A stretch of DNA of 64,000 nt, taken from sequence record NC_110934.1; one strand, written 5' to 3'. Below the pieces are notes generated by a model that ran no database searches, was not told where the DNA came from, and saw nothing but the letters and a program-made list of their open reading frames with translations. The translations under genes and the position numbers were made by a program. The stretch comes from Klebsiella phage KPP2018. Shown in pieces: positions 779 to 36,500 of the stretch. Position 1 is the first letter of the stretch, and each line of letters opens with the position of its first letter.

Positions 779-781
779 ATA

Positions 782-2470: not shown

Positions 2471-2477
2471 TTCAAAC

Positions 2478-2894: not shown

Positions 2895-2969
2895 ATTACC
2901 TCCATTAAGTCTTTTAAATTAACCTAATGTGGATGAATTTTATTATACATATATTATGTACCTTTATAC

Positions 2970-3012
2970 AGAAAAACCCCAGACTACTTATTCAATAGCT
3001 GGGGTTTGTTAT
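2970..3012 (-). terminator. Rho-independent terminator (ccccagc...gctgggg plus a T-run) after CDS 3016..3321
   Basis: Hairpin followed by tttttctgtat on the minus strand. Confidence 0.6.
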
Positions 3013-3015
3013 TAA

Positions 3016-3321: not shown

Positions 3322-3402
3322 ACATTTCTCCTAAAACTTGGGAGATAAATGGAGTTTGCTCGACTACCTTGCGTAGTTCGGAGAAACCGTATCCAAACCC
3401 CA

Positions 3403-3771
3403 TTACATCGCCTGAGTAAATGTACGACTAATAACGTCGTTCTGTTGTTCACGAGTCAGTGCATTAAATCGAACAGCGTAGCCAGAGACACGGATGGTCA
3501 ACTGATGATATTTTTCAGGATGTTTCTGCGCATCCAAAAGCTGATCACGGCTTAACACATTGACATTTAGGTGCTGACCACCTTCGATTTGAGGGGCGAC
3601 TTCCACTTTGACTTCACGGAAGGCTTCGGGATCGAATTGTGGTGTGATACCTTCTAGATCTTCAACTAGAACTTTCTGTTTAAGTTCACCATTGTCGGAG
3701 TATAGCTGAATAATCTGATTTTCATGAACAAGGTTAATTACGCCAGATTTAAGATTTTGATATGCTTTCAT
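3403..3771 (-). CDS. Hypothetical protein, 122 aa
   Basis: ORF. Confidence 0.6.
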
Positions 3772-3813
3772 TAGATCTCCCCGATGTTAGAATTTGGCTC
3801 AGCTCTTTATTCT

Positions 3814-4008
3814 TTATACTTTTCCATAGTATACGGAAACTGTCTTACCAGTTTGGTTCATGACGTATGCTACTTCATCTTCTTTTAAAAAGATGGCTTG
3901 ATCTACTCCAACTATAGCCAATCTCTTATTTCTAGGATTAAAGCTTACGCTTTTGCCCGTATGGATATGTTCACCATTCTTGGCTGACATTATTTTAATT
4001 GTTAACAT
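3814..4008 (-). CDS. Hypothetical small protein, 64 aa
   Basis: ORF directly downstream of a tRNA. Confidence 0.45.
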   Translation of the reverse strand: MLTIKIMSAKNGEHIHTGKSVSFNPRNKRLAIVGVDQAIFLKEDEVAYVMNQTGKTVSVYYGKV

Positions 4009-4045
4009 AGCTGCTCCTAAATTTAGCTATCTCTAGCTATTTTAA

Positions 4046-4122
4046 TGGTAGTTAGTAGTGGATTTGAACCACTGTAGTCGCTCCGTATGAGGGAGGTGCA
4101 TAACCACTCTGCCAACTAACTG
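4046..4122 (-). tRNA. tRNA-Met/Ile2 (anticodon CAT); CCA encoded
   Basis: Cloverleaf read by hand; T-arm motif; anticodon loop CTCATAC. Confidence 0.7.
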
Positions 4123-4217
4123 TTATGTTTTACTAGACTAAGTAAGTATTCTTTATACTCTTTAGACCAATTAGCTTTTTTAAACTTTCCTGGACGCATA
4201 GTCTTAATTCCTAAATT

Positions 4218-4294
4218 TGGTACTCCGGGAGGGATTTAAACCCCCGATCTCTCGGTTATCAGCCGAGTGCTTTAGATCGCTAAGCTACCGAAGC
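4218..4294 (-). tRNA. tRNA-Ile (GAT)
   Basis: Hand fold; loop CTGATAA; CCA encoded. Confidence 0.75.
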
Positions 4295-4295
4295 A

Positions 4296-4502
4296 TTAAT
4301 ATTTAATTGCAGAACGTTTACCATTTCTAGGCGCATCTGGAAGTCGTGCACGTTCTGCCATTCTTCGCTTAATCTTTGAGATATTTTCTAGTGTTTGTTC
4401 TTCAGGCTTAATACCTGAAACACTACACCACTGATTACCATCCCATGCGGTAATGATCATAACACCATTACCCATAATCTTTTCTGTGAAAGTAATTCTC
4501 AT
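4296..4502 (-). CDS. Hypothetical protein, 68 aa
   Basis: ORF. Confidence 0.45.
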   Translation of the reverse strand: MRITFTEKIMGNGVMIITAWDGNQWCSVSGIKPEEQTLENISKIKRRMAERARLPDAPRNGKRSAIKY

Positions 4503-4795
4503 TATAGCAACTCATCTAAGCAAGAGGTATATTTAAGTTTACCATCTTTATCTACTTTGATTTCGACTTCCGCTCGTGGTACTTGACGAACTACACCATG
4601 AATCATCTTATAGCGAATGCCTTTAGCTGGTTCACGATCTTTTGGAAATACTTGCTTAACCGTTACTACCTTGAAACCCTCACGCGGTGTTAACACTACT
4701 ACTTGATCACCTTCTTTGATCTTCCAAGAGCTAGGAAATTCATAGGTATAGCGTTGACCACCAGTTTGGAACACAACAGAAAGATAACGTTTCAT
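4502..4795 (-). CDS. Hypothetical protein, 97 aa
   Basis: ORF; promoter at 4803..4873. Confidence 0.55.
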   Translation of the reverse strand: MKRYLSVVFQTGGQRYTYEFPSSWKIKEGDQVVVLTPREGFKVVTVKQVFPKDREPAKGIRYKMIHGVVRQVPRAEVEIKVDKDGKLKYTSCLDELL

Positions 4796-4802
4796 TTGGT
4801 TT

Positions 4803-4873
4803 CCCTCTCATTAATTTATATAAATATTATAACAATAAATAAGAGAGAAAGCAAATGAATTTTTAATAAAGTT
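4803..4873 (-). promoter_or_regulatory. T5-type early promoter (-10 at 4826..4831, -35 at 4849..4854)
   Basis: Motif family. Confidence 0.7.
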
Positions 4874-5057
4874 TAGTCACTTCATAAACTATACTACGAG
4901 ATTCTTTATTACGTTGTATTAAATTAGCATATGCTTCTTCAGCTTCATTTTTAGTATTAAAGTCTATAACGTGAGAGGTATTAGCTCTGTTTGATTGGCT
5001 ATACCAGATAACTACTAGGAGTTTAAACATACTAATCCTTAAATTGGTGCTGGGCAC
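4863..5057 (-). CDS. Hypothetical small protein, 64 aa
   Basis: ORF. Confidence 0.4.
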   Translation of the reverse strand: MPSTNLRISMFKLLVVIWYSQSNRANTSHVIDFNTKNEAEEAYANLIQRNKESRSIVYEVTKLY

Positions 5058-5131
5058 AGGATTCGAACCTGCAACGGGATTACTCCTCCTGATTACAAAT
5101 CAGGTGCATTCAACCATTCTGCCAACCCAGC
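5045..5131 (-). tRNA. Atypical 87-nt type-II-shaped tRNA (15-nt extra arm) with anticodon TGT (Thr) as read
   Basis: Acceptor GCTGGGT/GCCCAGC, A73, CCA encoded; anticodon loop TTTGTAA; extra arm AGGAGTAATCCCGTT. Confidence 0.6.
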
Positions 5132-5296
5132 AGAACCCGTTATTTCAACGGGATTTCTTTTTCAATAACAGGGGACTTGTCAGTCATGACTGTCATTGCC
5201 ATTTGTTGTAGAAATTCAAAGGTGAAGGCTACACGTTCTTCACCAATCTCTACTTCTACACGTTTCTTTTGTTTATCGATCTTGACTTTCAGATTA

Positions 5297-5518
5297 TCAG
5301 CCATCTTCGGGTTCTCGTTGCTGCGCTACTTCTAGCCAGTCTGGTAGAAGAAACTTTGTACGAAATTCTTCGTAAGTTTCTTTGGGATAAAAGCTAAAAC
5401 CTCCTTTCTCGTCATTCAGGATAACAGAGCCGTCAGTTTGTTCGTATGCTCGGTATGTTTCTCCAATAACAATAACTCGTTTATCGGTACTTTTATTACG
5501 AAATTCAAAAACGTGCAT
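5297..5518 (-). CDS. Hypothetical protein, 73 aa
   Basis: ORF. Confidence 0.5.
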   Translation of the reverse strand: MHVFEFRNKSTDKRVIVIGETYRAYEQTDGSVILNDEKGGFSFYPKETYEEFRTKFLLPDWLEVAQQREPEDG

Positions 5519-5534
5519 AACGTTTCCTTAAAGT

Positions 5535-5610
5535 TGGAGCGGCTAGAGGGAATCGAACCCTACTCAGCGAGGCTTGGAAGGCCTGCGACACAACCCGTGT
5601 GCTTAACCGC
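5535..5610 (-). tRNA. tRNA-Gly (TCC)
   Basis: Hand fold; loop CTTCCAA; short D-arm. Confidence 0.7.
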
Positions 5611-5618
5611 TTATTGTT

Positions 5619-5694
5619 TGGCTGGAGAAGGAGGAATCGAACCTACCATTAACGGAGTCAAAGGCCGTTGTGCTAACCGTTACACTACTCTCCA
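5619..5694 (-). tRNA. tRNA-Gln (TTG)
   Basis: U1:A72; loop CTTTGAC. Confidence 0.7.
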
Positions 5695-5700
5695 ATTATT

Positions 5701-5776
5701 TGGCTGGAGTGCCTGGGATCGAACCAGGAACCTTCGGAGTCAGAGGCCGACGATCTGCCAATTGATCTACACTCCA
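5701..5776 (-). tRNA. tRNA-Gln (CTG)
   Basis: U1:A72; loop CTCTGAC. Confidence 0.7.
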
Positions 5777-5784
5777 ATAACCCT

Positions 5785-5985
5785 TTACTCTACAGGAACC
5801 GTGGCGATTGGTTCTGGATCTTCTAAACGTTTGCCTTCATGATCTACTCGAATAACTCCGCATCCTTCGCAAATCACAACAGCACCGTAGCCTTCTTTAA
5901 CTTCAGCTTCTGTAATCAAACCAGAAAGATCACCAGTATCTCTGCCCCACATATCAATGGAGCATTGTTTGCAGAAATCAGCCAT
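5785..5985 (-). CDS. Zinc-ribbon small protein, 66 aa (two CxxC pairs)
   Basis: ORF. Confidence 0.5.
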   Translation of the reverse strand: MADFCKQCSIDMWGRDTGDLSGLITEAEVKEGYGAVVICEGCGVIRVDHEGKRLEDPEPIATVPVE

Positions 5986-6010
5986 ATTTTATTTCCTATT
6001 TAAGTTAATT

Positions 6011-6087
6011 TGGGGTGGCTAGTGGAATTCGAATCCACATAGGCCTGATTCACAATCAGGATCATTAACCAATTATGATATAGCCAC
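6011..6087 (-). tRNA. tRNA-His (GTG)
   Basis: Loop TTGTGAA; CCA encoded. Confidence 0.7.
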
Positions 6088-6300
6088 AATTGAAAACTCG
6101 CAGGGTTAGCGAAACCTTCCTCAATTAGCATGTTCTAGAATACTAATCAAGTTATCTCCTATTGCACGCAGCTCAAGACGAGTACGAATTTTCAATTGTG
6201 GCGGCTCTCCGAAACTCTTCTACTCTAGCCTTAGCAGCTTACTCCCGAACGCATGTCGGGAAAGTCTTACTAAGAGCATCAAATAGCACCGTTACACTTT
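6088..6300 (-). ncRNA. Candidate structured RNA: about 120-nt region closed by a 14-bp stem (ccacaattgaaaa...ttttcaattgtgg) next to tRNA-His
   Basis: Long perfect inverted repeat; no ORF; lies in a transcribed tRNA block. Confidence 0.3.
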
Positions 6301-6321
6301 GAGCCATAGATATATCAAGAA

Positions 6322-6440
6322 GCAGAAGGACTTGAACCTTCACGAGATAGACCATTTATCTCAGCCGCTTTATGAGGTATGTTGCAAGGAGTGGATGTTC
6401 CTTATAAACCTTTTAGGCAGCCCCGTCTACCGATTCCGGC
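6322..6440 (-). other. tRNA-like element with a perfect T-arm (GAAGG TTCAAGT CCTTC) but no acceptor pairing I could find
   Basis: T-arm motif at 6331..6347; the remaining cloverleaf could not be closed by hand. Confidence 0.3.
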
Positions 6441-6471
6441 ATACTTCAAGAATTTTTATAAACCAGCAGAA

Positions 6472-6645
6472 GCCTCATTTAAAGCATCAACAATAGCCTC
6501 ACGTTGGGTCATTCCATACCCGGTGGAATCTAGGTGTGGCAAATAAGCCTTCCATCCCTTATCTGTTTCATGAAGACATGCTTTAAATTTTGTACCATCC
6601 TTCATTGTTACAGTAACTGTTTTGCTCATAAGATTTCCTTATAGT
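6472..6645 (-). CDS. Small protein of about 57 aa (MSKTVTVTMKDGTKFKACLHETDKGW...)
   Basis: Hand-translated; shorter than the ORF-track cutoff. Confidence 0.35.
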
Positions 6646-6649
6646 TAAT

Positions 6650-6739
6650 TGGCAGAAGATAATGGAGTCGAACCATCACCGTATCGCTACAGCGGGCTGG
6701 TTTTCAAGACCAGTTACGTACCACTACGTCCTATCTTCT
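6650..6739 (-). tRNA. tRNA-Ser (TGA), type II
   Basis: Loop CTTGAAA; long extra arm; G73; CCA encoded. Confidence 0.75.
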
Positions 6740-6745
6740 ATTGTT

Positions 6746-6836
6746 TGGCGGAAGAGGAGAGATTTGAACTCTCAAGCCGTTTTACCAGTCAGCCACTTTC
6801 CAAGCGGTTTTCGTCGCCAATTCGATTTGCTCTTCC
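6746..6836 (-). tRNA. tRNA-Ser (GGA), type II
   Basis: Loop TTGGAAA; long extra arm; G73. Confidence 0.65.
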
Positions 6837-6860
6837 AATAATAAGATGATGCCTCTATCA

Positions 6861-6905
6861 CACCAGGCAGTTACGCCTCGCTGGGATTCGAACCCATTAA
6901 AACAG
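6861..6905 (-). other. Orphan T-arm or tRNA 3' fragment (TGGG TTCGAAT CCCA) with no matching 5' half
   Basis: T-loop motif only. Confidence 0.3.
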
Positions 6906-6948
6906 CTCAACCAAGATAGTAGGTTTAATTTACTCTGACCATCAAATT

Positions 6949-7025
6949 TGGTGCGTGACAAGGGATTCGAACCCTCAAAACCCGACTTCTAAGGACGGTA
7001 TGTATGCCAATTCCATCAATCACGC
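6949..7025 (-). tRNA. Atypical type-I tRNA with Leu anticodon TAG, A73 and a 5-nt variable loop
   Basis: Loop CTTAGAA; a T:T mismatch in the anticodon stem; CCA encoded. Confidence 0.55.
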
Positions 7026-7030
7026 ATGTT

Positions 7031-7109
7031 TGGTGGAGAATAACGGAATCGAACCGTTCTGATGTCCTCGGTGCAAGCGAGGTGTCCACTCCATGCAGAC
7101 CCATTCCCC
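7031..7109 (-). tRNA. tRNA-Ala (TGC) with a G3:U70 wobble
   Basis: Loop CTTGCAC; G3:T70 is the Ala identity pair. Confidence 0.75.
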
Positions 7110-7320
7110 AAATTCTTTAGTTTACTAAGGCTATTAGCTCGGCGTAACTACAGCACCTTCGCTTCAAGCGGAAGGAACCGCGTCATCTCGCAAACCCGAT
7201 ACACTATTCAGTTGCCGCTGAATCTAGTGGACTAATCTAGAACTTCTCCCGAATCGTAGGGATCGTGCTTTTTGGCAGCCAGTCCTAGGTCGAGCTAATA
7301 CCTTAGTGAACTATGATGAG
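7110..7320 (-). ncRNA. Candidate small RNA: about 210 nt, no ORF, hairpins, downstream of a T5-type promoter and upstream of the tRNAs
   Basis: Inverted repeats ccttcgc/gcggaagg and ctagtggactaatctag. Confidence 0.3.
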
Positions 7321-7326
7321 GATTTC

Positions 7327-7398
7327 TCCTCATCAATTTATATAAATATTATAACAAGAAATTAAGCATCAAGCAAGTACATTTTTAGCGATTTCTTG
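7327..7398 (-). promoter_or_regulatory. T5-type early promoter firing into the ncRNA/tRNA block
   Basis: Motif family. Confidence 0.7.
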
Positions 7399-7737
7399 TA
7401 GTTCCTTTACATCACGAACGTAAAGGTAATCAGAGCTTCCAGAGTGCATACTTTGCATAACCACACCTTCATCTGGTGCATTATCCTTCAGAGTAATTCC
7501 TAACCAGAACTCGGCAAAACTAGGTGTTATCTCACCTTGACTTGCCTTGAATACATCATATTCTGTAAGTTCTTGACCAGTAGATAATCCCAAATATACA
7601 GAACTAAGATCAATCTCTTTATGAGACTCATAAAACTCCGATAGATCCTTTTCCATATCCCAGCCATGCTGTAGCGCGAACTCCATTGTCACATGACCGA
7701 AATAACCTTGAATCTTGCTTGATAATTGCATTTGCAA
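7369..7737 (-). CDS. Hypothetical protein, 122 aa
   Basis: ORF. Confidence 0.6.
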   Translation of the reverse strand: MQMQLSSKIQGYFGHVTMEFALQHGWDMEKDLSEFYESHKEIDLSSVYLGLSTGQELTEYDVFKASQGEITPSFAEFWLGITLKDNAPDEGVVMQSMHSGSSDYLYVRDVKELQEIAKNVLA

Positions 7738-7756
7738 TTCCTTATTTTGAGTTAAT

Positions 7757-7830
7757 TGGTACTCGGTGATAGAATCGAACTATCGCAACCGCCGTGTAAA
7801 GACGGGGTTCTCCCATTAAACTAACCGAGC
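7757..7830 (-). tRNA. tRNA-Val (TAC)
   Basis: Loop TTTACAC. Confidence 0.7.
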
Positions 7831-7834
7831 AATT

Positions 7835-7913
7835 TGGTAGATCGCCTGGGACTCGAACCCAGAACCTTCCGATTAAAAGTCGGATGCTACTAAACCTATT
7901 GAGCTAGCGATCT
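7835..7913 (-). tRNA. tRNA-Lys (TTT)
   Basis: Loop CTTTTAA. Confidence 0.7.
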
Positions 7914-7916
7914 ATT

Positions 7917-8084
7917 AGTAACCATTGTATACTTCTTTAATAGAGTGAACCTTCAAGTAAGGGTGATTAGTATTAAACTCTGACATTACTTCATCCCAAT
8001 TTTTACCATAATGGGCAAGTAAGGATTTTGATGTATTCTTACCTGAACGTTTGTCGCTTACTACTAATCGAAATACTTTCATTT
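7917..8084 (-). CDS. Small protein of about 55 aa (MKVFRLVVSDKRSGK...)
   Basis: Hand-translated. Confidence 0.35.
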
Positions 8085-8102
8085 CGAAATCCCCTATTAA
8101 AA

Positions 8103-8180
8103 TGGAAGCGGGTGCAGGAATCGAACCTACCTCTTTCTAGCTTATGAGACTAGTGATCTCTACCAGAGATCTAACCCGCA
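8103..8180 (-). tRNA. tRNA-Met/Ile2 (CAT) with a 1:72 mismatch
   Basis: Loop CTCATAA. Confidence 0.65.
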
Positions 8181-8186
8181 ATTGTT

Positions 8187-8262
8187 TGGTCAGTGCGGCA
8201 GGACTCGAACCTGCGACCCGAAGCATCCAAGGCTCCCACGCTACCAACTGCGCTACGCACTG
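8187..8262 (-). tRNA. tRNA-Pro (TGG) with C1:G72
   Basis: Loop CTTGGAT. Confidence 0.75.
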
Positions 8263-8303
8263 TTAATTCTTTTATTGTGGAGGAATATTAATAATTCGTC
8301 CGT

Positions 8304-8471
8304 CTACACAATAAACGGTACTAGGAATTGTACTATATATATGTAGAAATTCTTTATATTACTCTCCCCGCCACAGAAATTTTTAGCAAATTCATACTCT
8401 TTATTAATGGTTGAGTCAAATTTAAAACAACCAGTAAGTAGGAATACAGATAGTAATAAAATTTTCTTCAT
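8304..8471 (-). CDS. Small lipoprotein, 55 aa (lipobox LLTGC)
   Basis: Hand-translated MKKILLLSVFLLTGCFKF...; promoter at 8478..8552. Confidence 0.45.
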   Translation of the reverse strand: MKKILLLSVFLLTGCFKFDSTINKEYEFAKNFCGGESNIKNFYIYIVQFLVPFIV

Positions 8472-8477
8472 TTAGCT

Positions 8478-8552
8478 TTCCTTCTCTTCACTTTATAAAA
8501 TATATTATACAGATAATTAAGCAGAATAGCAAATGAATTTTTAATAAATTTA
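8478..8552 (-). promoter_or_regulatory. T5-type early promoter
   Basis: Motif family. Confidence 0.7.
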
Positions 8553-8559
8553 CTTATTG

Positions 8560-8683
8560 TGTAGGCCACCTGGAGGCTACCAACCCCACGGCTGACAAAG
8601 AAGTTTGCGAGACCTCTCTTAAATGCCAGAATAGATCCGCCGATCTATCGGAACCTACATAATAAGTAAACTTTATAGTGTCA
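8560..8683 (-). ncRNA. Unassigned non-coding stretch with hairpins inside the tRNA block
   Basis: No ORF and no tRNA fold found. Confidence 0.2.
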
Positions 8684-8804
8684 TTCTAGACAGGACTCGA
8701 ACCTGTTATCACTTGTGCGGACTTACGAGAACCATTCTTTCACTCGAATCGAACGAGCTTCTGCCCTCGCCAAGCTGGTTTCCCCGTCAACCACGCTAGA
8801 ATGT
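8684..8804 (-). other. 120-nt tRNA-like element: acceptor-like closing stem ATTCTAG/CTAGAAT enclosing two T-arm hairpins; no CCA
   Basis: Two T-arm motifs (GCTCG TTCGATT CGAGT and ACAGG TTCGAGT CCTGT). Confidence 0.4.
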
Positions 8805-8924
8805 TTAATTGTTTTCAGTGCAAGAGTCCGAGTCTTGGACACGACCGCTTCGCAAGTACATAGGCAGCTTATCATGAATCAGCACTTCCGAATTGCTAGC
8901 TCCGTGTTCTGCACTGAAATTTTA

Positions 8925-9272
8925 TTAGTTTAACCGTAAAGTATTATCTACTTCACCATTAATTGTTCGGCATTCTTCTGGGATTGCCGGGGTGGCCTTG
9001 TATTCCCACCATTCAGAACCGTCATATTCACCACGTTCTAACCAAGTTCCATCAGTAAACCATACGTTACCATAAAGCAATTGTCCACCGAAACCAGAAT
9101 CATATTTAAAGTCTAGATTATTTAGAAAATCTTCAATATCTTTTTCTGTATAACCTACGGGTAATACCCAAACTTCTTTGTCCCCATAATAACCGAATTC
9201 TATCTTAATACACTTAACTTCAGACTTAGTATTCTTTAGGGCAAGTAACAACTCTTCTTTAGCATTAATCAT
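8925..9272 (-). CDS. Hypothetical protein, 115 aa
   Basis: ORF. Confidence 0.6.
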   Translation of the reverse strand: MINAKEELLLALKNTKSEVKCIKIEFGYYGDKEVWVLPVGYTEKDIEDFLNNLDFKYDSGFGGQLLYGNVWFTDGTWLERGEYDGSEWWEYKATPAIPEECRTINGEVDNTLRLN

Positions 9273-9298
9273 AACATATTTCTCGTGCTAGTTTAATT

Positions 9299-9375
9299 TG
9301 GCGCGACCGATGGGATTCGAACCCACATTCTCTCCAGTGACAGGGGAGTACCATTACCAAGCCAGCCCCGGTCGC
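9299..9375 (-). tRNA. tRNA-Asp (GTC); copy 1 carries a C31:U39 mismatch (9336 a), whereas copy 2 has a paired G
   Basis: Loop CTGTCAC; G73; the one SNP found between the copies. Confidence 0.75.
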
Positions 9376-9384
9376 ATAATTCAT

Positions 9385-9570
9385 TTACTCAGCTTTGAGT
9401 TTTTCAATAGCTGCATTAAGTTCCTTAAGAAACTCTTTTCGTACATTAAGACGATTAAGACTTACTAGTATATCATGTTTAAGTTCTTCGATATATTTCT
9501 TCTCAACTTCAATATTGTTGATAGTGCTATCACGATGAACTTCTAGCTGCGCAATTACATTCTTGGACAT
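9385..9570 (-). CDS. Coiled-coil small protein, 61 aa
   Basis: ORF. Confidence 0.45.
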   Translation of the reverse strand: MSKNVIAQLEVHRDSTINNIEVEKKYIEELKHDILVSLNRLNVRKEFLKELNAAIEKLKAE

Positions 9571-9672
9571 GCTTGTTTCCTCAGTTATTAATAAAAATGG
9601 TATCTGTGGCTGAATTCGATATCAGCAATGATAGCTGGTTGGCTACCGGTTTACTTAACTCTACACAGAATT

Positions 9673-9755
9673 TGGCGGGCCGTGTAGGATTCGAACCTAC
9701 GTTGTCTTTCGACATGGATTAACAGTCCACCGCCAAACCGCTTGGCTAACGACCC
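9673..9755 (-). tRNA. tRNA-Asn (GTT) with an unusual 13-nt extra arm
   Basis: Loop CTGTTAA; extra arm GTCGAAAGACAAC. Confidence 0.65.
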
Positions 9756-9907
9756 TAAATTTATATTGCTGACTAGGATTTTCACCTAGACGGAGTTAGC
9801 ACCGTAGCGTGTAGCGGCATACCCCTCCAAACCGTGCCTCATCTTTCAATTACGGAGACAGTGTTCCTACGCGTGCCTGAATTGATTTAACAATTCTTTC
9901 AGCAAAT
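9756..9907 (-). ncRNA. Unassigned structured non-coding stretch between tRNA-Asn and tRNA-Cys
   Basis: Hairpins; no ORF. Confidence 0.2.
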
Positions 9908-9983
9908 TGGACGACCGCATGAGATTTGAACTCACATAAGAAGGATTTGCAATCCTTCTCCTAAGCCATTCAGCCAACGGTCG
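9908..9983 (-). tRNA. tRNA-Cys (GCA), U73
   Basis: Loop TTGCAAA. Confidence 0.75.
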
Positions 9984-10007
9984 ATTTATCTTGTTCTGTC
10001 ATGTTGC

Positions 10008-10075
10008 TCCCCCAGTTCAATTTATGTAATTATTATACAGAACTTTTGGAAACTAAGCAACTACATTTTTTAAGA
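10008..10075 (-). promoter_or_regulatory. T5-type early promoter firing into the tRNA block
   Basis: Motif family. Confidence 0.65.
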
Positions 10076-10340
10076 ATTTGATGCCTTTCTTTCTCTTCTT
10101 ATATTTCCACGTTAATGGATTCTGTCGATTATGAACACTTGAGATCTTTGTCTCATCAAAGTTCTTCAATATCATGTAATCACAAGATAGTTGTTCTAAT
10201 GGAATGTGATCACCGTCAAAAGCGTGTACATAAGGTTGTTGACTAGCACGATAATGATAGACTTTGTTAATTCTACGTTTCAGCGACTTATCCGCGCAGT
10301 AAATAAAGAAGTTTTCAGGATGCATCAGCAGCTCCTTCAA
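10053..10340 (-). CDS. Hypothetical protein, 95 aa
   Basis: ORF. Confidence 0.55.
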   Translation of the reverse strand: MKELLMHPENFFIYCADKSLKRRINKVYHYRASQQPYVHAFDGDHIPLEQLSCDYMILKNFDETKISSVHNRQNPLTWKYKKRKKGIKFLKNVVA

Positions 10341-10417
10341 TTTGGTGCACCCTGTTCGTATCGAACGAACCTCTCAAGCTCTTCAGGCAAGCGCTAATCC
10401 ATCTCAGCTAAAGGTGC
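10341..10417 (-). tRNA. tRNA-Phe (GAA)? The anticodon stem is weak
   Basis: Loop CTGAAGA; two T:T mismatches in the stem. Confidence 0.45.
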
Positions 10418-10424
10418 AAATTTT

Positions 10425-10495
10425 GGCAGGGGTAAAGGTATTCGAAACCTTTTCATGGGTTTTGGAGGCCCATTTGCAACCTATGCGTACCCCAA
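10425..10495 (-). tRNA. tRNA-Trp (CCA), compact 71 nt with a reduced D-arm
   Basis: Loop CUCCAAA, as in E. coli tRNA-Trp. Confidence 0.55.
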
Positions 10496-10504
10496 TTATT
10501 AATT

Positions 10505-10578
10505 GGCACACCCAACGAGGATCGAACTCGTGTTCCCACTGTGAAAGAGTGGTGTCCTAACCGCTAGACGATAGGTGC
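10505..10578 (-). tRNA. tRNA-Glu (TTC)
   Basis: Loop CTTTCAC. Confidence 0.7.
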
Positions 10579-10585
10579 ATTAAAT

Positions 10586-10673
10586 TGGTGGGGAAAGATG
10601 GAGTCGAACCACCCGAGTCGCAATGACAACTGATTTACAGTCAGCTCTGCTACCACTTACAGAATATTTCCCC
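10586..10673 (-). tRNA. tRNA-Tyr (GTA), type II
   Basis: Loop CUGUAAA; A73. Confidence 0.75.
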
Positions 10674-10803
10674 ATATTTAGAAGTATTCAAAAATTCTCA
10701 TTTAAACACTTTTAAATATGTTTCCAAATTAGATAAATATTATATCAAGTTTTATAGTATTGGGCAAGTCAAATTTTAAAGAACTTGCCCAATGCTGTAT
10801 TAG

Positions 10804-11079
10804 TTAGTCGAACTTAGGAGTGACAGTTAAGGAGAACGGAAGTTCAAAAACTTCTTCGCCCTCATCACTAATAGTGATTACACGACCTTTAAGTTCAGAC
10901 ATTGAAATATCAATATCAGCTTTTGCATCTGGAGCCATGCCAGCTTCAATACATTTAGCTTTAATTTCCGGCAGAAGTTCTACATCGTAGAAATAAAGCC
11001 ATTCAATCTCACCTTCCCAGCCTTCCCAGGATTTACAGATTGCACTTTCAATACCAGCAGCTATAACACGATTTTGCAT
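10804..11079 (-). CDS. Acidic hypothetical protein, 91 aa
   Basis: ORF; promoter at 11088..11162. Confidence 0.6.
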   Translation of the reverse strand: MQNRVIAAGIESAICKSWEGWEGEIEWLYFYDVELLPEIKAKCIEAGMAPDAKADIDISMSELKGRVITISDEGEEVFELPFSLTVTPKFD

Positions 11080-11087
11080 TCGTTAAC

Positions 11088-11162
11088 TCCTTCATCAATT
11101 TATATAACTATTATATCAGAAATTTAAAGCAAAAGGCAAGTACATTTTTAAAAATTCTGTTT
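11088..11162 (-). promoter_or_regulatory. T5-type early promoter
   Basis: Motif family. Confidence 0.7.
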
Positions 11163-11169
11163 GGAGGAG

Positions 11170-11376
11170 CTAAACTCCAGATTCTTCAGCCAAGTCTAGA
11201 CTAATAAGAGATATAGCCATAATTGCTGCTCCGTGCTCTTTTTCTCCAGTCTCTTTAGCTAGAGTTATAATATCAAGAAATTGCTTATGAAAATCTGCAA
11301 CCTCTTGAGTTATACCTGCCTCAGCAATCATGCCTTTAAGCATGAAGCGTTGTGCGGTAATTTCAGGATTAGCCAT
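11170..11376 (-). CDS. Hypothetical protein, 68 aa
   Basis: ORF. Confidence 0.5.
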   Translation of the reverse strand: MANPEITAQRFMLKGMIAEAGITQEVADFHKQFLDIITLAKETGEKEHGAAIMAISLISLDLAEESGV

Positions 11377-11551
11377 GTTGTTTCTCCAGTTTCATCTTTA
11401 ATAGTCTACAAATAAAATCAATGTCTTCATCCGTGCCTAGATCTCTATCTTCAAGGGTTGCCTTGAAGTTTTTAGTCAATTCCATGAGAATAACTTCTCT
11501 AGAACGACGTGTTGGCGGAGGTGGATGTCTATACATCTTATTTCCTTAATT

Positions 11552-11628
11552 TGGTAGGGGTGGTGGGATTCGAACCCACAAAACCTGAATTTTAAGTCCA
11601 GTACCTATGCCAATTCGATTACACCCCC
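11552..11628 (-). tRNA. Atypical type-I tRNA with Leu anticodon TAA, A73 and a 5-nt variable loop
   Basis: Loop CTTAAAA. Confidence 0.55.
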
Positions 11629-11635
11629 ATGTAGT

Positions 11636-11824
11636 TTAGTCAATTACTTTTGAGGCTTCAAGGTAGTCGATATAGTGTACGTTTTCTACCGTAATCATAT
11701 AATCCGCCACTTTATCCATAGCTTGGGCTTCAGAGGTAGCTCTGGCTAACCTATATCCTTTTCTATACTCATCCGGGTATTCTCTATCTTGAATAAACAC
11801 AACATAAACTATATATAGATCCAT
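11636..11824 (-). CDS. Hypothetical protein, 62 aa
   Basis: ORF. Confidence 0.45.
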   Translation of the reverse strand: MDLYIVYVVFIQDREYPDEYRKGYRLARATSEAQAMDKVADYMITVENVHYIDYLEASKVID

Positions 11825-11843
11825 TTGTGACCTCTATTTAATT

Positions 11844-11921
11844 TGGTGGCTCCCCGAGGATTCGAACCTACGTACCTTCCGGTTATGAGCCGGGTGCTCA
11901 TACCATATGAGCTTGAGAACC
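11844..11921 (-). tRNA. tRNA-Met/Ile2 (CAT); the third CAT tRNA
   Basis: Loop CTCATAA. Confidence 0.6.
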
Positions 11922-11927
11922 AAAATC

Positions 11928-12016
11928 TGGCGGAAGAAGTGGGAATCGAACCCACAAGGCTATATTTCAAACCGACAGATTAGCAATCTGCTGCAATACC
12001 ATTATGCTATTCTTCC
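11928..12016 (-). tRNA. tRNA-Ser (GCT), type II
   Basis: Loop TTGCTAA; G73. Confidence 0.75.
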
Positions 12017-12037
12017 GAATTTATAAGATATATTATA

Positions 12038-12607
12038 TTAGAAATTTAGCTTCATAGCAAGAAAATTTTTCAAGTTTTCGGTAGACATCTCATCCACATC
12101 TACAGGAGAAACAAATCCATTTAATTGTCTAGCAAACTTTTCACCAGCAGGATCATTGTCCCCAACAGCTACCAATTTAAAAGGTAGTAATTTCAGTTGC
12201 TTTAATAACGCTTTTCCTGGAGAAGAACCCAACATTGCCAGGGCTGGATAACCCGCATTATGTAATGCAACTGCCTTAAATACAGATTCAGCAATCAATA
12301 CTACTTTTTCATCCCCATTGAGAGTTTCTAGTCCCCATACACACTGTGTAGTAGAATAAGTAAAGTATTTAGCTTCAAAGGGGCACTTACCATGACCTTT
12401 TGGAGCAGAAGGATTATAAGTTTGATAGCCCCTCAACATTCCAGAGAAATCATACAACGGGACTGTTAGCCACCCTTCCGGACTTAACCAGCAATGATAT
12501 TTATCTGTATCAAATCCTCTAGATAAGAGGTGCTGTGTTAGCTCATCAACATTCATATTTGGTTCCTCTCTCAAATTTATAGATATATTATACAGAGAAT
12601 TTAGCAT
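12038..12607 (-). CDS. TOPRIM-domain protein (small primase-like), 189 aa
   Basis: VVLIAES...VAVGDNDPAG resembles the Toprim E and DxD motifs. Confidence 0.55.
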   Translation of the reverse strand: MLNSLYNISINLREEPNMNVDELTQHLLSRGFDTDKYHCWLSPEGWLTVPLYDFSGMLRGYQTYNPSAPKGHGKCPFEAKYFTYSTTQCVWGLETLNGDEKVVLIAESVFKAVALHNAGYPALAMLGSSPGKALLKQLKLLPFKLVAVGDNDPAGEKFARQLNGFVSPVDVDEMSTENLKNFLAMKLNF

Positions 12608-12625
12608 TCAAGCAATCAAATTTTT
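12548..12625 (-). promoter_or_regulatory. T5-type early promoter
   Basis: Motif family. Confidence 0.7.
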
Positions 12626-12731
12626 TAACTTTTTAGAGGAAAATCATAGGGCACTTAAGGGTAGCAGATAAGTGGTGAGGACCAAAATTTGTGACCCCAC
12701 TAAAAATCCAGGGGCAATTTTTAAAGACCCC

Positions 12732-12760
12732 TTGACATTTTCGCTGGGGTAGTGTAAAGT
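12732..12760 (+). promoter_or_regulatory. Sigma70 promoter (TTGACA, 17-nt spacer, TG-TAAAGT) for the plus-strand low-complexity operon; copy at 42196..42224
   Basis: Read directly. Confidence 0.6.
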
Positions 12761-12822
12761 ATATGTTATGGATGAGTGATCAAAGAGACACACATTTTCT
12801 ATATACTAGGAGGTGTCAAAAA

Positions 12823-33509: not shown

Positions 33510-36500
33510 TGGTAGTTAGTAGTGGATTTGAACCACTGTAGTCGCTCCGTATGAGGGAGGTGCATAACCACTCTGCCAACTAACTGTTATGTTTTACTAG
33601 ACTAAGTAAGTATTCTTTATACTCTTTAGACCAATTAGCTTTTTTAAACTTTCCTGGACGCATAGTCTTAATTCCTAAATTTGGTACTCCGGGAGGGATT
33701 TAAACCCCCGATCTCTCGGTTATCAGCCGAGTGCTTTAGATCGCTAAGCTACCGAAGCATTAATATTTAATTGCAGAACGTTTACCATTTCTAGGCGCAT
33801 CTGGAAGTCGTGCACGTTCTGCCATTCTTCGCTTAATCTTTGAGATATTTTCTAGTGTTTGTTCTTCAGGCTTAATACCTGAAACACTACACCACTGATT
33901 ACCATCCCATGCGGTAATGATCATAACACCATTACCCATAATCTTTTCTGTGAAAGTAATTCTCATTATAGCAACTCATCTAAGCAAGAGGTATATTTAA
34001 GTTTACCATCTTTATCTACTTTGATTTCGACTTCCGCTCGTGGTACTTGACGAACTACACCATGAATCATCTTATAGCGAATGCCTTTAGCTGGTTCACG
34101 ATCTTTTGGAAATACTTGCTTAACCGTTACTACCTTGAAACCCTCACGCGGTGTTAACACTACTACTTGATCACCTTCTTTGATCTTCCAAGAGCTAGGA
34201 AATTCATAGGTATAGCGTTGACCACCAGTTTGGAACACAACAGAAAGATAACGTTTCATTTGGTTTCCCTCTCATTAATTTATATAAATATTATAACAAT
34301 AAATAAGAGAGAAAGCAAATGAATTTTTAATAAAGTTTAGTCACTTCATAAACTATACTACGAGATTCTTTATTACGTTGTATTAAATTAGCATATGCTT
34401 CTTCAGCTTCATTTTTAGTATTAAAGTCTATAACGTGAGAGGTATTAGCTCTGTTTGATTGGCTATACCAGATAACTACTAGGAGTTTAAACATACTAAT
34501 CCTTAAATTGGTGCTGGGCACAGGATTCGAACCTGCAACGGGATTACTCCTCCTGATTACAAATCAGGTGCATTCAACCATTCTGCCAACCCAGCAGAAC
34601 CCGTTATTTCAACGGGATTTCTTTTTCAATAACAGGGGACTTGTCAGTCATGACTGTCATTGCCATTTGTTGTAGAAATTCAAAGGTGAAGGCTACACGT
34701 TCTTCACCAATCTCTACTTCTACACGTTTCTTTTGTTTATCGATCTTGACTTTCAGATTATCAGCCATCTTCGGGTTCTCGTTGCTGCGCTACTTCTAGC
34801 CAGTCTGGTAGAAGAAACTTTGTACGAAATTCTTCGTAAGTTTCTTTGGGATAAAAGCTAAAACCTCCTTTCTCGTCATTCAGGATAACAGAGCCGTCAG
34901 TTTGTTCGTATGCTCGGTATGTTTCTCCAATAACAATAACTCGTTTATCGGTACTTTTATTACGAAATTCAAAAACGTGCATAACGTTTCCTTAAAGTTG
35001 GAGCGGCTAGAGGGAATCGAACCCTACTCAGCGAGGCTTGGAAGGCCTGCGACACAACCCGTGTGCTTAACCGCTTATTGTTTGGCTGGAGAAGGAGGAA
35101 TCGAACCTACCATTAACGGAGTCAAAGGCCGTTGTGCTAACCGTTACACTACTCTCCAATTATTTGGCTGGAGTGCCTGGGATCGAACCAGGAACCTTCG
35201 GAGTCAGAGGCCGACGATCTGCCAATTGATCTACACTCCAATAACCCTTTACTCTACAGGAACCGTGGCGATTGGTTCTGGATCTTCTAAACGTTTGCCT
35301 TCATGATCTACTCGAATAACTCCGCATCCTTCGCAAATCACAACAGCACCGTAGCCTTCTTTAACTTCAGCTTCTGTAATCAAACCAGAAAGATCACCAG
35401 TATCTCTGCCCCACATATCAATGGAGCATTGTTTGCAGAAATCAGCCATATTTTATTTCCTATTTAAGTTAATTTGGGGTGGCTAGTGGAATTCGAATCC
35501 ACATAGGCCTGATTCACAATCAGGATCATTAACCAATTATGATATAGCCACAATTGAAAACTCGCAGGGTTAGCGAAACCTTCCTCAATTAGCATGTTCT
35601 AGAATACTAATCAAGTTATCTCCTATTGCACGCAGCTCAAGACGAGTACGAATTTTCAATTGTGGCGGCTCTCCGAAACTCTTCTACTCTAGCCTTAGCA
35701 GCTTACTCCCGAACGCATGTCGGGAAAGTCTTACTAAGAGCATCAAATAGCACCGTTACACTTTGAGCCATAGATATATCAAGAAGCAGAAGGACTTGAA
35801 CCTTCACGAGATAGACCATTTATCTCAGCCGCTTTATGAGGTATGTTGCAAGGAGTGGATGTTCCTTATAAACCTTTTAGGCAGCCCCGTCTACCGATTC
35901 CGGCATACTTCAAGAATTTTTATAAACCAGCAGAAGCCTCATTTAAAGCATCAACAATAGCCTCACGTTGGGTCATTCCATACCCGGTGGAATCTAGGTG
36001 TGGCAAATAAGCCTTCCATCCCTTATCTGTTTCATGAAGACATGCTTTAAATTTTGTACCATCCTTCATTGTTACAGTAACTGTTTTGCTCATAAGATTT
36101 CCTTATAGTTAATTGGCAGAAGATAATGGAGTCGAACCATCACCGTATCGCTACAGCGGGCTGGTTTTCAAGACCAGTTACGTACCACTACGTCCTATCT
36201 TCTATTGTTTGGCGGAAGAGGAGAGATTTGAACTCTCAAGCCGTTTTACCAGTCAGCCACTTTCCAAGCGGTTTTCGTCGCCAATTCGATTTGCTCTTCC
36301 AATAATAAGATGATGCCTCTATCACACCAGGCAGTTACGCCTCGCTGGGATTCGAACCCATTAAAACAGCTCAACCAAGATAGTAGGTTTAATTTACTCT
36401 GACCATCAAATTTGGTGCGTGACAAGGGATTCGAACCCTCAAAACCCGACTTCTAAGGACGGTATGTATGCCAATTCCATCAATCACGCATGTTTGGTGG

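What the first reader, a model, noticed from the sequence alone, without database searches (positions are those of the whole stretch)
4046..12016. tRNA array of at least 26 genes with several structurally non-canonical members
The minus-strand array reads Met, Ile, Gly, Gln x2, His, Ser x3, Ala, Val, Lys, Met x2 more, Pro, Asp, Asn, Cys, Phe?, Trp, Glu and Tyr, plus Arg at 45024 outside the repeat. Most have CCA encoded. The oddities by hand folding are as follows. (a) An 87-nt tRNA with a 15-nt extra arm (type II) but anticodon TGT, where Thr is normally type I (5045..5131). (b) Two tRNAs with Leu anticodons (TAG at 6949..7025 and TAA at 11552..11628) that are type I, where Leu is normally type II, both with A73. 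No canonical type-II tRNA-Leu or type-I tRNA-Thr was found. (c) tRNA-Asn carries a 13-nt extra arm. (d) tRNA-Trp is only 71 nt with a minimal D-arm. If these folds are right, the phage encodes minimalist Leu tRNAs and an oddly shaped UGU reader. That could affect aminoacylation identity, or it could mean these are decoys or substrates for tRNA-targeting defence or anti-defence.
Basis: partly seen in the sequence, partly recalled or inferred. Interest (0 to 1): 0.65.

Follow-up and report, generated by a model that had tools for sequence, protein, structure and literature searches.

The report
T5-like phage tRNAs with swapped shapes
This is the known tRNA gene cluster of a T5-like phage. Its odd members are real: leucine tRNAs without the usual extra arm, and threonine and asparagine tRNAs with an added one. 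They keep the marks of their own amino acid, recur in many unrelated phages, and may help phages survive bacterial enzymes that cut tRNAs.

Summary
ARAGORN and Rfam find the array at 4046-12016 on the minus strand: 21 default calls plus Ile2(CAU), Gly, Ser(GGA) and Trp, so 25 genes. It is repeated exactly at +29464, and tRNA-Arg lies at 45024. The source is a T5-like Demerecviridae phage.

ARAGORN reproduces the hand folds:
- Thr(UGU) is 87 nt with a 15-nt hairpin variable (V) arm.
- Leu(UAG) and Leu(UAA) are 77-nt type I tRNAs with A73.
- Asn is 83 nt with a GUC-GAAA-GAC V hairpin.
- Trp is 71 nt, as annotated in T5.

T5 itself has a type I Thr and a type II Leu in the same slots, so these are replaced alleles.

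The shapes are not peculiar to this phage. Type I Leu keeps every determinant read by E. coli LeuRS in 96-100% of 104 distinct viral sequences. Long-V Thr, Asn, Cys and Trp tRNAs carry the acceptor and discriminator marks that match their anticodon. Their V helices show compensatory changes.

They are therefore most likely cognate, working tRNAs, not mischargers or decoys. Thr(UGU) and Asn(GUU) are published targets of the PARIS nuclease AriB, and Bas33 carries the identical 87-nt Thr. An anti-nuclease role for the V arm is plausible but untested. Interest is moderate.

The parts
4046..12016 (-). tRNA gene array of 25 genes. It is copy 1 of an exact repeat; copy 2 is at 33510-41480.
   Evidence: ARAGORN; Rfam. 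Syntenic with T5 28038-37258.
5045..5131 (-). tRNA-Thr(UGU), 87 nt. Class-II-shaped: Ser-type 3-bp D arm, 15-nt V arm (GGA-GUAA-UCC hairpin), G1-C72, C2-G71, A73, CCA.
   Evidence: fold; 58.9 bits. Identical in about 50 T5-like records, including Bas33. V helix covaries.
6949..7025 (-). tRNA-Leu(UAG), 77 nt, type I. V loop GUUUU, A73, A14, A15, G18G19, A20a, U48.
   Evidence: Determinant statistics.
11552..11628 (-). tRNA-Leu(UAA), 77 nt, type I. Paralogue of the UAG species; there is no counterpart in T5.
9673..9755 (-). tRNA-Asn(GUU), 83 nt, with a GUC-GAAA-GAC hairpin in the V region, and G73.
   Evidence: V helix covaries.
10424..10494 (-). tRNA-Trp(CCA), 71 nt, with a reduced D arm (3 bp plus 5-nt loop), a C31.A39 mismatch and U1.U72.
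   Evidence: One base different from the tRNA-Trp annotated in T5. Fold. Not called by ARAGORN or Rfam.
7835..7913 (-). tRNA-Lys(UUU), 79 nt. Positions 36-41 read UAAUCG; E. coli has UAAUCA and T5 has UAAACC.
   Evidence: AriB site from PMC12409363.
5535..5610 (-). tRNA-Gly(UCC), 76 nt.
   Evidence: ARAGORN relaxed. Identical to T5 tRNA-Gly.
6746..6836 (-). tRNA-Ser(GGA), 91 nt.
   Evidence: Diverged homologue of T5 Ser2; Bas33 annotates a 91-nt Ser(GGA) in the same slot.
11844..11921 (-). tRNA with a CAU anticodon. T5 annotates the homologue as Ile2, read through a lysidine modification.
   Evidence: Rfam 40.3 bits, ARAGORN relaxed, T5 annotation.
45024..45098 (-). tRNA-Arg(UCU), outside the repeat.
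   Evidence: Identical to T5 tRNA-Arg.
34509..34595 (-). Second copy of the 87-nt tRNA-Thr(UGU).
36413..36489 (-). Second copy of type I tRNA-Leu(UAG).
41016..41092 (-). Second copy of type I tRNA-Leu(UAA).

Best explanation
This is the early-region tRNA gene cluster of a T5-like (Demerecviridae) phage. Its structurally odd members are most likely working tRNAs for the amino acid their anticodon specifies. Only their variable region has the wrong length for that amino acid.

(1) The two 77-nt Leu tRNAs are tRNA-Leu that lost the long variable arm. They keep everything E. coli-type LeuRS reads: A73, the A15:U48 pair, G18G19 and A20a. LeuRS needs neither the arm nor the anticodon, so the host enzyme should leucylate them. 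They would then read CUA and UUA, which this phage uses heavily.

(2) The 87-nt UGU tRNA sits on a tRNA-Ser-like body: a Ser-type D arm, and a V arm reduced to a 3-bp hairpin. Its acceptor end and anticodon carry the Thr determinants (G1-C72, C2-G71, G35, U36). It lacks the LeuRS determinant A20a and has the SerRS antideterminant C2-G71. It should therefore be threonylated and read ACA.

(3) tRNA-Asn is an ordinary Asn body (G73, GUU) with a GNRA-capped 3-bp hairpin inserted in the V region.

(4) The 71-nt Trp is the tRNA-Trp already annotated in T5.

Function, inferred: the array supplies decoding capacity and replaces host tRNAs destroyed by tRNA-targeting defences. Thr(UGU), Asn(GUU) and Lys(UUU) are exactly the targets of the PARIS nuclease AriB. 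The remodelled V regions may additionally hinder nucleases that read tRNA shape. This last step is a hypothesis.
For: Shown here:
- Folds and scores.
- T5 has a 75-nt type I Thr and an 85-nt type II Leu at the same syntenic slots, so these are allelic replacements.
- The 87-nt Thr is present in about 100 T5-like records. It has homologues in Aeromonas T4-like phage PX29 (85-nt Thr) and in Erwinia T4-like phages, where it is an 87-nt Trp with A1-U72 and G73.
- Type I Leu occurs in Demerecviridae, Seunavirus, Felixounavirus and Vibrio Thalassavirus, with many compensatory stem changes.
- In 104 distinct viral type I Leu sequences: A73 in 103, A15:U48 in 100, GG in 104, A20a in 100. This matches type II Leu and differs from other short-V tRNAs, where A15:U48 is 34% and A20a is 51%.
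- Ser and Tyr, whose synthetases need the arm, stay long in 79 of 80 and 39 of 39 bystander genes. Leu is short in 10 of 37 and 43 of 102 bystander genes.
- All 12 distinct long-V Thr(UGU) have G1-C72 and C2-G71, A or U at 73, and none has A20a. Long-V Asn has G73 in 9 of 10, and long-V Cys has U73 in 8 of 8.
- RNAalifold predicts the V helices independently, with changes on both sides in 6-7 of 15 sequences per pair (Thr, Trp, Cys set) and 2-4 of 8 (Asn set).
- In window ORFs CUA is 19% and UUA 24% of Leu codons, and ACA is 21% of Thr codons.

From the literature:
- E. coli LeuRS identity is A73, A15-U48, G18G19 and A20a. Variants lacking the V arm remain active (PMC9976931, citing Larkin 2002 and Asahara 1998).
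- AriB cleaves host Lys(UUU), Thr(UGU) and Asn(GUU) between positions 40 and 41, and phage T5 variants rescue infection (PMC12409363).
- Bas33 (HildyBeyeler) carries the identical 87-nt Thr and a long-V Asn but no Lys(UUU). T5 tRNA-Lys alone rescues it from PARIS, whereas T7 needs Lys plus Thr (PMC12409363).
Against: - There are no expression, modification or aminoacylation data for these exact species.
- E. coli LeuRS failed to charge the type I tRNA-Leu(CAA) of Streptomyces coelicolor, and that paper states the enzyme charges only type II (PMC6614811).
- The 87-nt Thr keeps the exact AriB motif U36AAUC|A41, and the Asn keeps UAAUC|C. Resistance, if any, cannot come from the substitutions described for T5.
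- The Bas33 rescue is indirect. T5Mos is not rescued despite encoding its own Thr.
- The viral-contig sample was drawn with sequence patterns, so frequencies are biased. Only the bystander counts are roughly unbiased.
- The Thr identity set (G1-C72, C2-G71, G35, U36) is quoted from my own knowledge of the E. coli ThrRS literature. The review read here does not spell it out.
- Minimum-free-energy folds of the single Leu sequences are not cloverleaves, which is common for tRNAs.
Confidence: 0.6

Rival explanations
1. Neutral history only. The tRNAs are functional and cognate, but the unusual V regions have no adaptive role. The Leu arm was lost because LeuRS does not select for it. The Thr arm is a shrinking relic of a tRNA-Ser ancestor whose anticodon changed by one base (UGA to UGU) and whose identity was then re-tuned.
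For: - The Thr D arm (GCAGAAUGGUUGAAUGC) is the Ser-type D arm: 60 distinct tRNA-Ser carry the same motif.
- Arm loss is seen only in the isotype whose synthetase ignores the arm.
- V stems of the Thr, Cys and Trp forms are shorter (3-4 bp) than Ser stems (5-6 bp).
Against: - The hairpins persist with compensatory changes and are repeatedly capped by GNRA tetraloops across distant phage lineages. That argues for selection on the hairpin rather than decay.
- Asn has a non-Ser body with an inserted hairpin, so the relic argument does not cover it.
Confidence: 0.3
2. Identity mismatch. The class-II-shaped UGU tRNA is charged by an anticodon-blind synthetase (LeuRS or SerRS) and inserts Leu or Ser at ACA codons, as nematode nev-tRNAs do.
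For: - It has class II shape, A73 and an A15:U48 pair.
- Precedent: nev-tRNAs with Gly or Ile anticodons are leucylated (PMC3333845, PMC4300185).
Against: - A20a is absent in 12 of 12 long-V Thr sequences.
- C2-G71 is a listed antideterminant against SerRS, and G73 is absent (PMC9976931 Table 3).
- The V stem is only 3 bp.
- Discriminator and acceptor marks track the anticodon in the Thr, Asn, Cys and Trp long-V classes.
- ACA makes up 11 per 1000 codons in phage ORFs, so systematic mistranslation would be costly.
- Bas33 does not need an added Thr tRNA under PARIS (PMC12409363).
Confidence: 0.06
3. Decoys. The odd tRNAs are not used in translation but soak up tRNA-targeting nucleases or other host factors.
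For: The 87-nt Thr and the Asn keep the host-like AriB motif UAAUC. Decoy action of phage tRNA-Tyr is discussed for Septu (PMC13096335).
Against: - They have full canonical T loops, G18G19, encoded CCA and intact cognate identity sets.
- They are the only Leu and Thr tRNAs in an array that otherwise covers all 20 amino acids.
- Their anticodons match codons the phage uses often.
Confidence: 0.05
4. Artefacts or pseudogenes: the folds are mis-predictions, or the genes are decaying.
For: Trp and Ser(GGA) escape both detectors. T5 notes that several of its tRNAs cannot be converted to suppressors.
Against: - Rfam scores are 47-59 bits against a 29-bit threshold.
- Sequences are identical in many independent isolates.
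- Covariation is seen in every helix.
Confidence: 0.02

Closest known systems
Bacteriophage T5 tRNA gene region (NC_005859, 28.0-37.3 kb, plus tRNA-Arg at 40.8 kb)
   Same: Same genome position, strand, gene order and flanking genes. Arg and Gly are identical. His (apart from T5's extra 5' base), Met, Val, fMet, Cys, Ser(GCU), Trp, Phe and Ile2 are nearly so.
   Different: - T5 has a 75-nt type I Thr(UGU), an 85-nt type II Leu(UAG), a 78-nt Asn and no Leu(UAA).
- Here those slots hold non-homologous alleles with the opposite V-arm class.
- No ORF of 70 aa or more with an HNH endonuclease match lies inside this array.
Phage T5 tRNA-Lys(UUU), Thr(UGU) and Asn(GUU) as anti-PARIS tRNAs (PMC11464382, PMC12409363)
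   Same: Same three isoacceptors are encoded. Bas33, used in that work, carries the identical 87-nt Thr.
   Different: T5 variants escape AriB by substitutions at positions 39, 41 and 16. The Thr and Asn here keep the host-like 36-41 motif and differ instead by a V hairpin and a D loop without U17. Resistance has not been tested.
Type I tRNA-Leu of Streptomyces coelicolor and human mitochondria (PMC6614811), and the short-V tRNA-Leu(TAG) in mycobacterial tRNA clusters (PMC6582537)
   Same: tRNA-Leu with a short variable loop coexisting with, or replacing, type II forms. The mycobacterial case is also in a mobile tRNA gene cluster.
   Different: - S. coelicolor needs a specialised LeuRS, and E. 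coli LeuRS does not charge its type I Leu.
- The phage forms keep the E. coli determinant set and infect hosts with ordinary LeuRS.
- The mycobacterial case was noted in one sentence without analysis.
Nematode nev-tRNAs (PMC3333845, PMC4300185)
   Same: Class-II-shaped tRNAs that carry anticodons of class I amino acids.
   Different: nev-tRNAs retain Leu identity and are leucylated. The phage forms have cognate acceptor and discriminator marks and only a mini V hairpin.
T5 tRNA-Tyr resisting retron-Eco7 PtuAB, and Septu cleavage of the tRNA-Tyr V loop (PMC11555353, PMC13096335)
   Same: Precedent that bacterial defence nucleases read or cut the variable arm, and that phage tRNAs escape through an altered variable loop.
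   Different: That case concerns Tyr. No nuclease directed at the tRNA-Leu V arm is known to me.
allo-tRNAs and selC-like tRNA-Cys (reviewed in PMC7609411)
   Same: Long V arms on tRNAs with unexpected anticodons.
   Different: Those have 8/4 or 9/3 acceptor/T geometry and Ser or Sec-type identity. The tRNAs here have standard 7/5 geometry.

Membership tests
tRNA (Rfam RF00005) | Covariance-model score above the 29-bit gathering threshold | tested here: met
   Thr 58.9, Leu(UAG) 47.5, Leu(UAA) 57.4 and Asn 59.0 bits. Trp and Ser(GGA) are not reported.
T5-type tRNA gene cluster (Demerecviridae) | Synteny and sequence similarity with T5 at 23.7-58 kb, with tRNA genes on the early-gene strand | tested here: met
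   Collinear blastn blocks at 76-95% identity. 129 phage records cover at least 80% of the array.
Class II (long variable arm) tRNA | Variable region of 10 nt or more that forms a stem-loop | tested here: met
   Thr has 15 nt with a GGA/UCC stem. Asn has 13 nt with a GUC/GAC stem. Both helices covary. Both Leu tRNAs fail this, with 5-nt loops.
tRNA-Leu as a substrate of E. coli-type LeuRS | Discriminator A73 | tested here: met
   Both window Leu tRNAs, and 103 of 104 viral type I Leu.
tRNA-Leu as a substrate of E. coli-type LeuRS | A15:U48 pair, G18G19 and A20a in the D loop (PMC9976931) | tested here: met
   D loop GAAUUGGCAUA and V loop GUUUU in both. In the viral sample 100/104, 104/104 and 100/104.
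tRNA-Leu as a substrate of E. coli-type LeuRS | Actual leucylation by the host enzyme | not testable with these tools
   Needs an aminoacylation assay. A contrary precedent exists for the S. coelicolor type I Leu (PMC6614811).
tRNA-Thr as a substrate of E. coli-type ThrRS | G1-C72, C2-G71, G35 and U36 (identity set quoted from my own knowledge of the ThrRS literature) | tested here: met
   Window Thr starts GCUGGGU and ends GCCCAGC-A, with anticodon UGU. 12 of 12 long-V Thr sequences agree.
Leu-charged class II tRNA with a foreign anticodon (nev-tRNA-like) | Complete LeuRS determinant set on the class II body | tested here: not met
   A73 and A15:U48 are present, but A20a is replaced by U or C in 12 of 12.
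tRNA-Ser as a substrate of SerRS | G73, G2-C71 and a long V stem | tested here: not met
   A73, C2-G71 (an antideterminant in PMC9976931 Table 3) and a 3-bp V stem, against 5-6 bp in viral tRNA-Ser.
AriB (PARIS)-resistant phage tRNA | Substitutions at positions 39 or 41, or at U16, as in the T5 variants | tested here: not met
   Thr has UAAUCA and Asn UAAUCC, both host-like. U16 is kept and U17 is absent. Lys has UAAUCG, changed at position 41 only.
AriB (PARIS)-resistant phage tRNA | Resistance to cleavage and rescue of infection | not testable with these tools
   Indirect only: Bas33, with the identical Thr, needs only T5 tRNA-Lys to escape PARIS (PMC12409363).

The most novel reading that the evidence does not exclude
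Remodelling of the variable arm is a general phage counter-defence. Phages add a short GNRA-capped V hairpin to tRNAs that host nucleases recognise by shape along the anticodon-stem to D-loop face; Thr(UGU) and Asn(GUU) are AriB targets. Phages also delete the dispensable V arm from tRNA-Leu, removing a handle for arm-directed nucleases. In both cases synthetase identity is left intact.
Probability: 0.2. Interest if true: 0.75.

Novelty: new variant of a known kind. Interest (0 to 1): 0.5.

Why it matters
Phage tRNAs are now known to neutralise tRNA-cutting immune systems such as PARIS, retron-Eco7 and Septu. So far escape has been explained by point substitutions or by dosage. If class-switched variable arms also confer escape, that would be a second, structural route.

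It would also show which parts of a tRNA can be changed freely without losing identity. That is useful for designing orthogonal tRNAs. The type I Leu family also contradicts the textbook rule that bacterial-type tRNA-Leu is always class II. It offers natural substrates to test whether E. coli LeuRS really cannot charge type I tRNA-Leu.

Tried and rejected
- Mischarging (Leu or Ser on the UGU tRNA): rejected on determinants.
- Chance or mis-folding: rejected by Rfam scores, by identity across isolates and by covariation.
- Reciprocal swap of one V arm between Leu and Thr: rejected. The T5 and window alleles are not homologous in the rest of the molecule. The Thr body is Ser-like and the Leu body is Leu-like.
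- Test of the AriB idea by comparing positions 36-41. Long-V Thr keep UAAUC in 10 of 12, against about 26 of 60 for short-V Thr. This is only suggestive, because the sequences are not independent and the hosts are unknown.
- Ten full-text literature searches found no description of class-switched phage tRNAs, apart from one sentence on a mycobacterial cluster.
- Supplementary files of the AriB paper are not held.
- tRNAscan-SE could not be run.
- The 29.46-kb repeat could not be explained. No record in the phage collection spans its junction.

Full report
**What is there.**
ARAGORN finds 43 tRNA genes in the window, all on the minus strand. There are 21 in 4046-12016, the same 21 shifted by 29464 bases, and tRNA-Arg(UCU) at 45024-45098. 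Rfam's tRNA model confirms them at 32-65 bits and adds a CAU-anticodon tRNA at 11847-11921.

Relaxed ARAGORN settings add Gly(UCC) at 5535-5610. Comparison with the annotated T5 and Bas33 genomes adds Ser(GGA) at 6746-6836 and a 71-nt Trp(CCA) at 10424-10494.

The window is 95-97% identical to T5-like Salmonella and Escherichia phages. It is collinear with T5 itself. The array is flanked by a glycyl-radical ORF and a Toprim ORF, as in T5.

**The four oddities are real.**
ARAGORN's folds match the hand folds.
- Thr(UGU) is 87 nt, with a 3-bp D stem, an 11-nt D loop and a 15-nt variable region holding a GGA-GUAA-UCC hairpin.
- Leu(UAG) and Leu(UAA) are 77 nt, with a 5-nt variable loop GUUUU and A73.
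- Asn(GUU) is 83 nt, with a GUC-GAAA-GAC hairpin. The cloverleaf including this hairpin is its minimum-free-energy fold.
- Trp is 71 nt, with a 3-bp D stem and a 5-nt D loop. It differs at one base from the tRNA-Trp annotated in T5.

No type II Leu and no type I Thr is present anywhere in the window.

**They are replaced alleles.**
T5 carries a canonical 75-nt Thr(UGU) and an 85-nt type II Leu(UAG) at the same syntenic slots. It has no Leu(UAA). The T5 and window alleles are unrelated outside the universally conserved tRNA positions.

In the phage collection the counts are as follows.

| tRNA form | Records |
|---|---|
| 87-nt Thr | about 100 T5-like records |
| T5-type Thr at 90% identity or more | about 310 |
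| Type I Leu(UAG) at 95% identity or more | about 160 |
| T5-type type II Leu at 90% identity or more | about 55 |
| Long-V Asn at 90% identity or more | about 280 |

Among T5-like phages the arm-less Leu is therefore the commoner form.

**The shapes recur in unrelated phages.**
- The 87-nt Thr has a 77%-identical 85-nt Thr(UGU) in Aeromonas T4-like phage PX29. It is about 80% identical to an 87-nt tRNA-Trp(CCA) in Erwinia T4-like phages.
- Type I Leu(UAG) occurs in Seunavirus, Felixounavirus and Vibrio Thalassavirus.
- The Ala-Leu gene pair here is 87.6% identical to the same pair in a Seunavirus, which points to cassette exchange between phage families.

Two pattern scans of IMG/VR gave 247 loci and 1731 tRNA calls. 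They contain 104 distinct type I Leu sequences with anticodons UAG, UAA, CAA, GAG, CAG and AAG.

Some loci were picked for an unrelated Ser-type motif, so the other tRNAs in them act as unselected bystanders. In those loci Leu is type I in 10 of 37 distinct genes, while Ser (21 of 21) and Tyr (10 of 10) stay long. Arm loss is thus confined to the one class II isotype whose bacterial synthetase does not use the arm.

**Identity is preserved.**
The review PMC9976931 states that E. coli LeuRS depends on A73, the A15-U48 pair, G18G19 and A20a. It also states that variants lacking the variable arm and the anticodon arm remain active. The comparison in the viral sample is below.

| Determinant | Type I Leu | Type II Leu | Other short-V tRNAs |
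|---|---|---|---|
| A73 | 103/104 | 87/94 | 569/1002 (not Leu isotypes) |
| A15:U48 | 100/104 | 92/94 | 34% |
| GG in D loop | 104/104 | 93/94 | 972/1002 |
| A20a | 100/104 | 92/94 | 51% |

Both window Leu genes have the full set.

The 87-nt Thr has G1-C72, C2-G71, G35 and U36. This is the E. coli Thr identity set, quoted from my own knowledge. All 12 distinct long-V Thr(UGU) sequences share it, with A or U at position 73, and none has A20a. C2-G71 is a listed antideterminant against SerRS.

The other long-V classes behave the same way:
- Long-V Asn has G73 in 9 of 10.
- Long-V Cys has U73 in 8 of 8.
- The long-V Trp has A1-U72 and G73.

In every class the acceptor end follows the anticodon, not the body shape. 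RNAalifold, given unaligned sequences, predicts the V helix on its own. Both-side changes occur in 6-7 of 15 sequences per pair (Thr, Trp, Cys set) and 2-4 of 8 (Asn set).

The phage uses CUA for 19% and UUA for 24% of Leu codons, and ACA for 21% of Thr codons. The anticodons therefore match demand.

**Origin.**
The D arm of the 87-nt Thr (GCAGAAUGGUUGAAUGC) is the tRNA-Ser-type D arm. Of 73 distinct tRNAs carrying that motif, 60 are Ser. The anticodon UGU is one substitution from Ser UGA. Likewise GCA (Cys) is one step from GCU, and CCA (Trp) is one step from CGA.

The non-Ser members have V stems of 3-4 bp, usually capped by GNRA loops, against 5-6 bp in Ser. The likely history is recruitment of a Ser scaffold, an anticodon change, re-tuning of the acceptor end and shortening of the arm. 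This is inference. Asn has an ordinary body with an inserted hairpin.

**Function.**
The cognate-decoder reading is well supported. The defence link comes from the literature.

AriB of PARIS cleaves host Lys(UUU), Thr(UGU) and, less efficiently, Asn(GUU) between positions 40 and 41, within the motif U36AAUC|A41. An AlphaFold 3 model places its second monomer on D-loop positions U16 and U17. T5's three variants together neutralise PARIS.

Bas33 is HildyBeyeler, as its locus tags show. It carries the identical 87-nt Thr, an 86-nt long-V Asn and no Lys(UUU). The paper reports that T5 tRNA-Lys alone rescues Bas33, whereas T7 needs Lys plus Thr. This indirectly suggests that the 87-nt Thr works and survives AriB.

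However, this Thr keeps UAAUCA and the Asn keeps UAAUCC. It differs from host tRNA only in the V hairpin and in a D loop lacking U17. The variable region lies between the two modelled AriB contact sites, so a steric shield is geometrically plausible, but it is untested.

For Leu, no arm-directed nuclease is known to me. The precedents are PtuAB and Septu, which cut the tRNA-Tyr variable arm.

**Caveats.**
- E. coli LeuRS did not charge the S. coelicolor type I Leu.
- No expression or charging data exist for these species.
- The viral sample is biased by the search patterns.
- tRNAscan-SE was not available.

**Novelty.**
The array is the known T5-type cluster, and the genes are already annotated as tRNA-Thr, tRNA-Leu and tRNA-Asn in hundreds of records. 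In ten full-text searches I found no description of the class switch. The one exception is a sentence noting a short-V Leu(TAG) in a mycobacterial tRNA cluster. I rate the finding a new variant of a known kind, of moderate interest.

Noticed in passing
window 1-13593 and 29465-43057; junction at 13593/13594: An exact 13.6-kb direct repeat at an offset of 29464 bases. Against T5 the window reads 23.7-38.8 kb, then 7.75-23.2 kb, then 23.7-58 kb. The junction joins a truncated T5.077 homologue (ORF 12763-13599) to terminal-repeat-like sequence. No record in the phage collection spans it. It is either a roughly 29.5-kb tandem duplication of the tRNA and early region, or a misassembly.
   Followed up: partly
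window 9336 versus 38800 (tRNA-Asp 9299-9375 and 38763-38839): This is the only difference between the two repeat copies, and it falls at position 39 of the tRNA-Asp anticodon stem. Copy 1 has U39, giving a C31.U39 mismatch (Rfam 42.8 bits). Copy 2 has G39, as in T5 (49.0 bits).
   Followed up: partly
window 45601-45672, minus strand: A tRNA-like element (Rfam tRNA 35.5 bits) with no CCA and no ARAGORN call. It lies in the region homologous to T5 'RNAX', a stable RNA of unknown function.
   Followed up: no
window 6317-6448 and 8734-8801, minus strand: Weak tRNA-like signals: Rfam 25.2 bits, and relaxed ARAGORN calls 'Tyr(ata)' and 'Arg(gcg)'. They lie where T5 annotates tRNA-like stable RNAs RNA1 and RNA2.
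   Followed up: no
window 6949-7109 versus L005 213-373 (Cronobacter phage EspYZU14, Seunavirus): The adjacent Ala(UGC)-Leu(UAG) gene pair is 87.6% identical, with the same order and spacing, in an unrelated myovirus family. This suggests exchange of tRNA cassettes between phage families.
   Followed up: partly
IMG/VR loci L052, L143, L145, L175, L188, L189, L190, L201: Eight distinct tRNA-Ile(UAU) genes carry 20-27-nt variable-region inserts, most with a loop motif AGAUUA or AGAUA. It is unclear whether these are V arms, introns or something else.
   Followed up: no
L003 2992-3078 (Erwinia phage IT22) and L082: An 87-nt class-II-shaped tRNA-Trp(CCA) with A1-U72 and G73. It shares the D arm, V hairpin and T arm of the window's 87-nt Thr.
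   Followed up: partly
window 3403-3771, minus strand: An ORF with a glycyl-radical domain (Pfam Gly_radical, E = 1e-17) lies directly beside the array. It is the homologue of T5.056.
   Followed up: no
window 7835-7913, minus strand: tRNA-Lys(UUU) differs from the T5 anti-PARIS variant. Positions 36-41 read UAAUCG, changed only at position 41, while T5 has UAAACC. Its AriB sensitivity is unknown.
   Followed up: no
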